Shown piece after piece: positions 24,601 to 26,315 of a stretch of DNA of 64,000 nt. Source of the DNA: Escherichia coli (GTDB lineage: Bacteria; Pseudomonadota; Gammaproteobacteria; Enterobacterales; Enterobacteriaceae); NCBI RefSeq assembly GCF_001677475.2, contig NZ_CP015229.1. One strand, written 5' to 3'. A program made the position numbers. Position 1 is the first letter of the stretch, and every line of letters begins with the position of its first letter.

Positions 24601-26315
24601 TGGTTGTAACGCCGGGTATGGATACCGCGTGGGCAGGTGCGCCCAGCAGGCAGAAGAGGATGAACAGGATCCACCGCATGACTCCTCCAGTGAGAAAACA
24701 GAGCAAAAAGATAAGTATAGATGCTGGGGGAGGGGCGATTTTAAATGAGAGGAATCTGGTGTGCCTCCCTTTCGGGTGAAAGGGAGGCAGAGAAGTTAAG
24801 AGACGTGCTGCAAAAATTCCTGCAAGCGCTGGCTCGGCGGGTTCTTGATCAACACCTGCGGATCTCCATCTTCCGCAATCCGGCCTTTGTCGATAAAGAT
24901 CAGGCGCGAAGCTACTTTCTCGGCAAAACCGATTTCGTGGGTCACGATCACCATCGTCATCCCTTCTTCAGCCAGATCCTGCATAACCTTCAGCACTTCA
25001 TGGCGCAGTTCCGGGTCAAGAGCGGAAGTCGGTTCATCAAACAGCATCATTTTCGGCTTCACCGCCAGCGCGCGGGCAATCGCCACACGCTGCTGTTGAC
25101 CACCAGAAAGTTCGGAAGGGTAGTGATGTGCTCGTTCTGCCAGACCGACTTTCGCCAGCAGCTCACGCGCCAGTTTTTCCGCCTCTTCTTTGTTCGCGCC
25201 ACGCACACGTAGCGGACCAAACATGACGTTTTCCAGCGCCGTCAGATGCGGGAAGAGGTAAAACTGCTGGAACACCATACCCGCTTCCTGGCGAATCAGG
25301 CGCTCGTCAACTTTCGGATCGTTAACCTTCAGGCCATCGACAATCAGATCGCCGGAGGTGATTTCTTCCAGTTTGTTGATGCAGCGCAGCAGGGTCGATT
25401 TACCGGAACCGGACGGCCCGATAATCACCACGACTTCGCCCTGAGCAATGTTCAAATCAATATTGTGCAGCACCTGGGTTGGACCAAAATGCTTGGAGAC
25501 GTTTTTAAATTCAATCACAGGATTTTCATCCTTCTTTCCAGACGACGCAGAATAAAGCTCAGCACCAGGGTAATAATCAGATAGAACACCGCCACGGCGC
25601 TCCAGATCTCAAGGGCGCGGAAGTTACCGGCAATAATTTCTTGCCCCTGACGGGTCAGTTCCGCCACGCCGATAACAATAAACAGCGAGGTGTCTTTAAT
25701 GCTGATGATCCACTGGTTACCCAGTGGCGGCAGCATACGACGCAGTGCCAGCGGTAAAATGACGTAGCGAATGGTTTCCCAACGTGAAAGACCGAGCGCC
25801 AGTCCTGCTTCACGAAAACCTTTGTGAATAGACAGCACCGCACCACGCGTGATTTCCGCAATGTACGCGCCGGAGTTGATCATGATGGTGACCACCGCCG
25901 CAGTAAATGGGTCGATGCGTAAGTCGTTAAACGCCATCGGCAGGGCGAAATAGATAAACATCACCTGGACGACGATAGGTGTGCCGCGGATCACTTCAAT
26001 AAAGACCAGCGCGATGTGGTTGGCTATCCAACCACCGAAGGTGCGTGCAAAACCTGCCAGCAATCCGATTACCAGACCGCCAGCCAGACCGAGGACCGAA
26101 ATCCACAGGGTCATTTTGGCACCTTCAATCAGAAGCGGAATGGCAGGCCAGATGGCACTCCAGTCAAACTGCATATGTTGTTCCTGTTACCGTGGTGTAA
26201 ATAATCAAATTCAGGGTAATTAATGGCCCCGGAGCGGGTTTGCGCCCCTCACCCTAATCCTCTCCCCAGAGGGGAGAGGGAACTGCCTGTGCGCTTTACA
26301 GGTGTAGCGTTATTA

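What the first reader, a model, noticed from the sequence alone, without database searches (positions are those of the whole stretch)
26223..26290. GC-rich palindromic element inside the glnHPQ operon
Between glnH and glnP lies ctcaccctaatcctctccccagaggggagaggg, a strong inverted repeat that would form a stable hairpin in the mRNA. Such intra-operon hairpins can set differential expression of the binding protein versus the permease and ATPase, or act as a repetitive extragenic element.
Basis: seen in the sequence. Interest (0 to 1): 0.25.

Follow-up and report, generated by a model that had tools for sequence, protein, structure and literature searches.

The report
BoxC repeat hairpin ending glnH mRNA
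The GC-rich palindrome between glnH and glnP is a slightly degenerate copy of the long-known E. coli BoxC (PIT/TMECO) dispersed repeat, and published RNA 3'-end mapping in K-12 puts a glnH transcript end 4 nt after its hairpin, so it is ordinary but probably useful.

Summary
A perfect 9-bp inverted repeat (CCTCTCCCC/GGGGAGAGG, 3-nt loop) lies at 26259-26279 in the 138-nt glnH-glnP spacer. On the transcribed (-) strand it reads CCCTCTCCCC-TCT-GGGGAGAGGA-TTA-GGGTGAGGGG. That is the BoxC / PIT / TMECO repeat with one G->A change, plus the family's 5' flank.

The core recurs a median of 15 (up to 30) times per genome in 5425 of 5426 complete E. coli genomes. The spacer itself is found in 5420 of 5426.

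Published Term-seq for K-12 (Adams 2021) lists an RNA 3' end 4 nt past the stem in all three growth conditions. This corresponds to window 26255 (-). There is no U-tract. PIT elements showed no terminator activity in earlier assays.

In 80 other enterobacterial species the same slot always holds a strong hairpin, but of unrelated sequence: REP-like, terminator-like or other.

The best reading is a known repeat whose RNA hairpin blocks 3'-to-5' exonucleases, leaving a stable glnH mRNA upstream of the conserved GlnZ/Shine-Dalgarno site of glnP. The effect on the GlnH:GlnPQ ratio is inferred, not shown. Low interest; the element is already known.

The parts
26245..26294 (-). BoxC / PIT / TMECO repeat unit. 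It has a 14-nt family 5' flank (GCGCACAGGCAGTT, 26281-26294) and a 36-nt three-block core (CCCTCTCCC-CTCTG-GGGAGAGGA-TTA-GGGTGAGGG-G, 26245-26280).
   Evidence: Regex and flank comparison with K-12 copies; alignment A2; consensus from PMC4666352; 15-30 places per genome.
26271..26279 (-). 5' arm of the mRNA hairpin (CCUCUCCCC).
   Evidence: Invariant in 9 sampled E. coli alleles.
26268..26270 (-). Hairpin loop (UCU here; UAU in K-12; GCC in B2/ETEC alleles).
26259..26267 (-). 3' arm of the mRNA hairpin (GGGGAGAGG).
26255..26255 (-). Position orthologous to the K-12 Term-seq RNA 3' end 847200 (-). It is the last A of GGGGAGAGG-AUUA, 4 nt after the stem, 58 nt after the glnH stop codon and 81 nt before the glnP ATG.
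   Evidence: PMC7815308 supplementary file 1. Coordinates mapped through L001, with no indels between glnQ and glnH.
26245..26254 (-). Third G-block of the repeat (GGGTGAGGGG), the would-be third strand of the DNA triplex. In the MFE fold it pairs with UUACCCUGA further downstream (26211-26257; prediction only).
   Evidence: It is mutated in O157 (1-nt deletion) and B2 (G->A) alleles.
26180..26197 (-). Conserved block CACCACGGTAACAGGAAC, holding the glnP Shine-Dalgarno sequence and the published GlnZ sRNA pairing region. It is not part of the repeat.
   Evidence: Present, with at most small changes, in nearly all 81 spacers. GlnZ pairing just upstream of the SD is reported in PMC9731577 and bioRxiv 10.1101/2022.04.01.486790.
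26313..27059 (-). glnH (periplasmic glutamine-binding protein).
25515..26174 (-). glnP (permease).
24796..25518 (-). glnQ (ATPase).
24763..24788 (-). Hairpin at the end of the operon (GCCTCCCTTTCACCCGAAAGGGAGGC). It is orthologous to the K-12 Term-seq 3' end 845561 (-).

Best explanation
The element is a slightly degenerate copy of the BoxC (also called PIT or TMECO) dispersed repeat of E. coli. It was fixed in the glnH-glnP spacer before E. coli diversified. When the glnHPQ operon is transcribed, the first two blocks of the repeat fold into a perfect 9-bp GC-rich hairpin (-18.3 kcal/mol). That hairpin is not an intrinsic terminator. It most likely acts as a barrier to 3'-to-5' exonucleases: RNA that is cleaved or terminated further downstream is trimmed back to the hairpin. 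This leaves an abundant, stable glnH transcript ending 4 nt after the stem, while the glnPQ part decays separately. The result would favour more binding protein than membrane components. It would also shield glnH from the GlnZ sRNA-triggered repression that acts at the glnP ribosome-binding site 60-75 nt downstream. Shown: repeat identity, hairpin, copy number, fixation, the mapped 3' end in K-12, and GlnZ action on glnP. Inferred: trimming rather than termination, the stabilising effect, and the effect on protein ratio and insulation.
For: Identity: the core matches the TMECO consensus CCCTCNCCC-N3-6-GGGNGAGGG-N3-GGGNGAGGG at all but one fixed position. It shares the family 5' flank and aligns with 8 K-12 copies. 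The 63-nt core hits a median of 15 and up to 30 places per genome.

Fixation: the spacer is found in 5420 of 5426 E. coli genomes. The alternative REP-type allele seen in E. albertii and L011 is in none.

3' end: K-12 847200 (-) has 30,332 reads (LB 0.4), 130,459 reads (LB 2.0) and 42,295 reads (M63). The operon-end site 845561 has 29,295 reads and is called only in M63.

Not an intrinsic terminator: the stem is followed by AUUAGGGUGAGG, and no terminator-like site is called on the - strand. PIT elements showed no terminator or promoter activity (PMC4666352).

General precedent: U-less stem-loops define steady-state 3' ends by blocking PNPase and RNase II (PMC6061677). Two other BoxC copies also carry Term-seq 3' ends just after their hairpins, at 3781065 after lldD and at 632098.

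Slot conservation: all 81 species have a strong hairpin in this spacer. The median is -20.5 kcal/mol against -11.6 in shuffles, and 2.4% of shuffles reach the observed value. The hairpins fall into unrelated sequence classes.

Stem conservation: the stem is invariant in 9 E. coli alleles, while the loop, flank and third block vary.

Discoordinate regulation: the text names only glnP and glnQ, not glnH, from this operon among the 12 genes repressed more than 4-fold by a GlnZ pulse in Salmonella.
Against: No experiment links this hairpin to glnH mRNA half-life or to the GlnH:GlnP ratio. The 3' end was measured in K-12, whose copy differs from the window by one loop base and two flank bases. A 4-nt tail is shorter than I would expect for an exonuclease stall, judging from memory of the enzymology rather than from any check made here, so a pause or termination component is not excluded. 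No bicyclomycin-sensitive (Rho) region was seen at these coordinates in supplementary file 2, so the downstream event that would feed trimming is unidentified. Stem invariance in 9 alleles is not significant by itself (about 15% by a rough count). It could also reflect recency or gene conversion from other BoxC copies.
Confidence: 0.6

Rival explanations
1. Neutral passenger. A BoxC repeat landed in a tolerant spacer and was fixed by drift or hitch-hiking. The RNA 3' end is an unavoidable by-product of any stable hairpin and has no selected effect on glnHPQ expression.
For: No function has been found for BoxC in about 30 years (PMC4666352). The copy is degenerate: G->A in block 2 in all E. coli alleles, with further hits in block 3. 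Repeats commonly accumulate just after stop codons; 8 of 8 K-12 loci examined have a stop codon within 75 nt of the repeat, although one of them is on the opposite strand to the repeat. Stem invariance is not statistically significant.
Against: Every one of 81 species keeps a strong hairpin at this slot despite complete sequence turnover. That argues a hairpin here is maintained, not merely tolerated. The 3' end is among the better-covered sites of the region.
Confidence: 0.25
2. Leaky transcription terminator or pause. The hairpin, perhaps helped by NusA or NusG, makes a fraction of RNA polymerases stop between glnH and glnP.
For: The 3' end lies only 4 nt after the stem. In 21 other species the slot holds a GGGGCG..CGCCCC hairpin followed by a T-run, that is, a canonical intrinsic-terminator shape. 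Dar and Sorek note easy evolutionary switching between U-rich and U-less stem-loops.
Against: There is no U-tract (AUUAGGGU follows the stem), and the terminator scan finds nothing on the - strand. [quoted passage not shown]
Confidence: 0.1
3. DNA-level role. The three blocks fold into an intrastrand purine-motif triplex (H-DNA-like) that promotes local genome instability or recombination, as proposed for TMECO.
For: TMECO oligonucleotides form stable triplexes in vitro. TMECO loci were reported to be more variable than control loci (PMC4666352).
Against: This copy breaks the triplex pattern (GGGAGAGGA instead of GGGAGAGGG), and block 3 decays further in O157 and B2 alleles while the Watson-Crick stem stays intact. 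The locus is stable, being present in 5420 of 5426 genomes. Divergence from K-12 is 2.2% in the spacer, against 0.8-1.8% in the flanking genes and 2.7% in the next spacer. No triplex was detected in vivo or in duplex DNA.
Confidence: 0.05

Closest known systems
BoxC repeats of E. coli, also called PIT elements (Hoyne and Maher) or TMECO triplex motifs (Holder et al. 2015, PMC4666352)
   Same: The same three-block sequence, the same TTA second loop (type A), the same 5' flank, an intergenic position, and 15-30 copies per genome.
   Different: There is one G->A change at the end of block 2, so it fails the strict TMECO pattern and is absent from that paper's 23 K-12 sites and from the part of the supplement held as text, one file of which was cut when stored. 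Its Watson-Crick stem is perfect, whereas most K-12 copies carry a G.A mismatch. It lies inside an operon.
REP/BIME mRNA stabilisers inside binding-protein transport operons (malE-malF; Newbury et al. 1987, as cited in PMC6061677)
   Same: A repeat-derived hairpin just after the binding-protein gene in an ABC transporter operon, with an RNA 3' end at its foot. The expected outcome is more binding protein than membrane components.
   Different: It has no sequence relationship to REP. Stabilisation has not been measured for this element. In sister species a REP-like hairpin occupies the same slot.
Protective U-less stem-loops at steady-state 3' ends of E. coli transcripts (Dar and Sorek 2018, PMC6061677)
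   Same: A stable stem-loop without a U-tract, with a precise 3' end immediately downstream.
   Different: That class was defined at gene or operon ends that depend on Rho. Here the site is internal to an operon, and no Rho-dependent region was listed at these coordinates.
Intrinsic terminators / intra-operon attenuators
   Same: A GC-rich hairpin after the first cistron. Orthologous spacers in Kluyvera, Lelliottia, Kosakonia and others carry a canonical hairpin plus T-run.
   Different: This element has no U-tract.

Membership tests
BoxC / PIT / TMECO repeat | Sequence homology to the family unit (three blocks plus the conserved 5' flank ..CGGTC) | tested here: met
   Alignment A2 with 8 K-12 copies shows the core invariant at 29 columns. 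blastn-short against the adk-hemH copy gives E=1e-5. The flank is visible.
BoxC / PIT / TMECO repeat | Strict ITxF pattern CCCTCNCCC-N3-6-GGGNGAGGG-N3-GGGNGAGGG (an intact triplex motif) | tested here: not met
   Block 2 reads GGGAGAGGA, one mismatch. The copy is therefore a degenerate member by homology, not an intact triplex motif.
BoxC / PIT / TMECO repeat | Dispersed, multi-copy, intergenic | tested here: met
   78,784 places in 5425 genomes, median 15 and maximum 30 per genome. There is only one copy in this window.
BoxC / PIT / TMECO repeat | Forms an intrastrand DNA triplex | not testable with these tools
   This needs CD/NMR or in vivo probing. The published data concern canonical copies only.
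REP / BIME | REP consensus (GCCGGATG..., tail GGCCTAC) | tested here: not met
   No such motif is present in 26175-26312. REP-like hairpins do occur in the orthologous spacer of E. albertii, Citrobacter, Enterobacter and Salmonella.
Intrinsic (Rho-independent) terminator | GC-rich hairpin followed by a U-tract | tested here: not met
   The hairpin is present, but the 3' tail is AUUAGGGUGAGG, and the scan finds no site on the - strand in the spacer.
Exonuclease-blocking 3' stem-loop (mRNA stabiliser) | Steady-state RNA 3' end immediately downstream of a stable U-less stem-loop | tested here: met
   Published Term-seq for the K-12 orthologue shows 847200 (-) in three conditions, 4 nt after the stem.
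Exonuclease-blocking 3' stem-loop (mRNA stabiliser) | The 3' end depends on PNPase / RNase II / RNase R, and the upstream mRNA is stabilised | not testable with these tools
   The supplement of PMC6061677 is not held. No half-life data were found.
Any curated RNA family (Rfam 15) | Covariance-model match | tested here: not met
   Only chance-level hits were found, with E of at least 1.8 and far below the gathering scores.

The most novel reading that the evidence does not exclude
BoxC elements have been studied for decades as putative DNA-triplex motifs with no known role. They may act mainly at the RNA level, as REP-like exonuclease-blocking hairpins. In E. coli one of them replaced an ancestral REP-type or terminator-type hairpin in a conserved 'hairpin slot' of glnHPQ. 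There it would insulate glnH mRNA from GlnZ sRNA-triggered decay of glnPQ and so help set the binding-protein:transporter ratio.
Probability: 0.3. Interest if true: 0.45.

Novelty: already known. Interest (0 to 1): 0.22.

Why it matters
The finding closes as a recognised repeat family, not a new regulatory element. Two modest points go beyond the catalogue. First, public Term-seq data tie BoxC hairpins, here and at lldD and near cstA, to precise RNA 3' ends. That gives this orphan repeat family a plausible RNA-level effect that earlier DNA-centred work did not examine. Second, the glnH-glnP spacer shows turnover of unrelated hairpins (terminator-like, REP-like, BoxC) at one conserved position, next to the conserved GlnZ target. 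This makes it a small natural experiment on how intra-operon hairpins are maintained.

Tried and rejected
- The Rfam scan of 25000-27500 gave only chance hits.
- The sigma-70 promoter scan found none in 25400-27400. The terminator scan found none on the - strand in the spacer.
- A second copy in the 64-kb window was sought with the 21-mer, the two-G-block pattern and blastn-short. None was found.
- The REP-type spacer allele of L011 was searched in 5426 E. coli genomes, with no match. BoxC-present versus BoxC-absent is therefore not a polymorphism within complete E. coli genomes.
- The Holder 2015 supplement held as text (one of its two files was cut when stored) has no glnH or glnP entry, which is consistent with the copy failing their strict pattern.
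- The Dar and Sorek 2018 supplement, with its exonuclease-mutant Term-seq, is not held.
- Rho-dependent regions were searched by coordinate in Adams 2021 supplementary file 2, and nothing was found at 84712x-84725x.
- A first attempt to rank hairpins by top-level MFE components was muddied by long-range pairs. It was replaced by a local single-hairpin scan.
- The + strand ORF 26223-26723 was considered and dismissed as a mechanical ORF antisense to glnH.

Full report
**Observation.** The window region is the E. coli-type glnHPQ operon on the minus strand: glnH 26313-27059, glnP 25515-26174 and glnQ 24796-25518. The glnH-glnP spacer is 26175-26312, 138 nt. It contains a perfect 9-bp inverted repeat, CCTCTCCCC/GGGGAGAGG, with a 3-nt loop at 26259-26279. 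The quoted string is at 26248-26280. As RNA the hairpin folds at -18.3 kcal/mol. The 21-mer never appears in shuffles of the window.

**What it is.** On the transcribed strand the sequence reads GCGCACAGGCAGTT-CCCTCTCCCC-TCT-GGGGAGAGGA-TTA-GGGTGAGGGG.
- This is the BoxC repeat, rediscovered as the 'potential intrastrand triplex' (PIT) element and later named TMECO. Its published consensus is CCCTCNCCC-N3-6-GGGNGAGGG-N3-GGGNGAGGG, with a TTA (type A) or CCG (type B) second loop (PMC4666352).
- The window copy is type A and has one deviation, GGGAGAGGA instead of GGGAGAGGG.
- I fetched eight K-12 loci listed in that paper's Table 1 and aligned them. The window copy shares the core and also the family's 5' flank (..gcgcacggacaGTC).
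- The 63-nt core matches 78,784 places in 5425 of 5426 complete E. coli genomes, with a median of 15 and a maximum of 30 per genome.
- The window holds a single copy.
- Rfam has nothing here.
- The copy is not among the 23 strict K-12 TMECO sites, and the supplement held as text has no glnH or glnP entry. The single mismatch explains this. K-12 carries the same G->A.

**Distribution and age.**
- The spacer is found in 5420 of 5426 E. coli genomes, and at 80% coverage or more in 5401.
- Nine sampled E. coli alleles all carry the G->A change and an invariant 9-bp stem. Differences fall in the loop (TCT, TAT, GCC), the 5' flank and the third G-block (a 1-nt deletion in O157:H7, G->A in B2 strains). 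With so few variable sites this pattern is suggestive only.
- Against K-12 the spacer differs at 3 of 138 positions. That is similar to the neighbouring sequence, so there is no sign of the local instability proposed for TMECO.

**Comparison across species.** I used GlnH to fetch the locus from 80 other species and extracted the glnH-glnP spacer from each.
- BoxC occurs only in the window and in Escherichia sp. E1V33.
- E. albertii and a divergent record labelled E. coli SCPM-O-B-8794 carry a REP-like hairpin instead. That allele is in none of the 5426 complete E. coli genomes.
- All 81 spacers contain a strong single hairpin, from -12.7 to -28.6 kcal/mol, with a median of -20.5.
- Dinucleotide shuffles give a median of -11.6. 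Only 31 of 1296 shuffles reach the observed value, and 68 of 81 spacers have z below -2. The species are related, so these are not independent trials, but the hairpins fall into unrelated sequence classes.
- The classes are: 38 REP-like (GCCCGG..CCGGGC, often followed by CTAC); 21 GGGGCG..CGCCCC stems, usually followed by a T-run, that is, the shape of an intrinsic terminator; 20 other; and the two BoxC spacers (the window and E1V33). The script's own tally was 38/21/21/1, because the window's best single hairpin was its second stem and so fell under 'other'.
- The block CACCACGGTAACAGGAAC next to the glnP start codon (window 26180-26197) is conserved, with at most small changes, in nearly all of them.
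- Two studies show that the GlnZ sRNA represses glnP by pairing just upstream of the Shine-Dalgarno sequence (bioRxiv 10.1101/2022.04.01.486790 and PMC9731577).

**Transcript evidence.**
- Adams et al. 2021 (PMC7815308, supplementary file 1) list a curated 3' end at K-12 847200, minus strand, class 'orphan'. The surrounding sequence is ACACCTGTAAAACGCACTGGCAGTTCCCTCTCCCCTATGGGGAGAGGATTAGGGTGAGGGG.
- It appears in all three sheets: 30,331.8 reads (LB OD 0.4), 130,459 (LB OD 2.0) and 42,295.2 (M63).
- The 61-nt field runs from -50 to +10. I checked this against sgrS and the dps terminator, and against the coordinates. The end is therefore the A of GGGGAGAGG-AUUA, 4 nt past the stem. It maps to window 26255 (-), with no indels between the two sequences across this stretch.
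- The operon-end hairpin after glnQ (K-12 845561; window 24763-24788) is called only in M63, with 29,295 reads.
- Two other BoxC copies also carry 3' ends just after their hairpins: 3781065 after lldD, and 632098.
- No Rho-dependent region was found by coordinate search at 84712x-84725x.

**Mechanism.**
- The hairpin has no U-tract, and the terminator scan finds nothing on the minus strand.
- PIT elements showed no promoter or terminator activity and did not impede RNA polymerase in earlier tests, as summarised in PMC4666352.
- Dar and Sorek 2018 showed that U-less stem-loops define precise steady-state 3' ends because PNPase and RNase II trim back to them. They also noted that such structures can switch with intrinsic terminators in evolution (PMC6061677).
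- The best-supported reading is that the BoxC hairpin is an exonuclease barrier that leaves a stable glnH transcript. It is analogous to the REP stabiliser of malE-malF.
- This would give more GlnH than GlnPQ, and would let GlnZ-triggered repression of glnPQ spare glnH. In Salmonella, from this operon the text names only glnP and glnQ among the 12 genes repressed more than 4-fold by a GlnZ pulse; glnH is not mentioned.
- These last steps are inference. No mutant or half-life data exist for this hairpin.

**Rivals.**
- Neutral passenger repeat with an incidental 3' end (0.25). The conserved hairpin slot argues against it.
- Leaky terminator or pause (0.10). This is favoured by the short 4-nt tail and by the terminator-like orthologous hairpins, and disfavoured by the missing U-tract and the earlier reporter assays.
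- DNA triplex or instability role (0.05). This copy breaks the triplex pattern and the locus is stable.

**Verdict.** The element belongs to a family known since the 1990s, and its 3' end is already in a public dataset, so it counts as already known and of low interest. The link between BoxC and RNA 3' ends, and the turnover of hairpin types at one slot next to the GlnZ target, are modest side observations. I did not find either stated in the papers I read.

Noticed in passing
window 24707-24795: The glnQ-ybiO spacer is 89 nt here but 260 nt in K-12. The extra K-12 DNA consists of two REP-like units (GCCTGATGCGCTACGCTTATCAGGCCTAC and GTAGGACGGATAAGGCGTTCACGCCGCATCCGGCA). This is a REP/BIME presence/absence difference.
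   Followed up: partly
window 24763-24788 (-): The hairpin GCCTCCCTTTCACCCGAAAGGGAGGC after glnQ has no U-tract. It matches a K-12 Term-seq 3' end (845561, M63 only, 29,295 reads, 3 nt after the stem) and is the likely steady-state end of the full operon transcript.
   Followed up: partly
L096 (E. coli strain B2.3), aligned to window 26281-26312: Unrelated AT-rich DNA replaces the 5' flank and the first C-block of the BoxC, and glnH is not annotated within 120 nt. This looks like an insertion or rearrangement breaking the element in a rare strain (19 genomes cover less than 80% of the spacer).
   Followed up: no
window 26223-26723 (+): A mechanical 166-aa ORF (MAPERVCAPHPNPLPRGERE...) starts in the spacer, reads through the BoxC and runs antisense to glnH. 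It is probably the reason for the finding's start coordinate. It was not tested further.
   Followed up: no
window 22000-30000: The best identity to any of 5426 complete E. coli genomes is only 99.0% over 8 kb. The window therefore comes from an Escherichia/Shigella lineage not closely represented in that collection.
   Followed up: no
L011 (GenBank 'E. coli SCPM-O-B-8794') 1948-2041: This record, labelled E. coli, has an E. albertii-like REP-type glnH-glnP spacer that is absent from all 5426 complete E. coli genomes. It is probably a divergent or mislabelled Escherichia lineage.
   Followed up: partly
window about 27112 (-); K-12 848057: Term-seq lists a 3' end 53 nt upstream of the glnH start codon (LB OD 2.0, 47,250 reads), at the TGGCACGATTTTTTCA sigma-54-type promoter sequence.
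   Followed up: no
L009 (K-12 3908495-3908530): Another BoxC copy sits inside a second ABC-transporter operon, between pstA and pstB, in the opposite orientation relative to transcription. The Holder supplement notes it as 'middle of operon pstS/C/A/B-phoU'.
   Followed up: no
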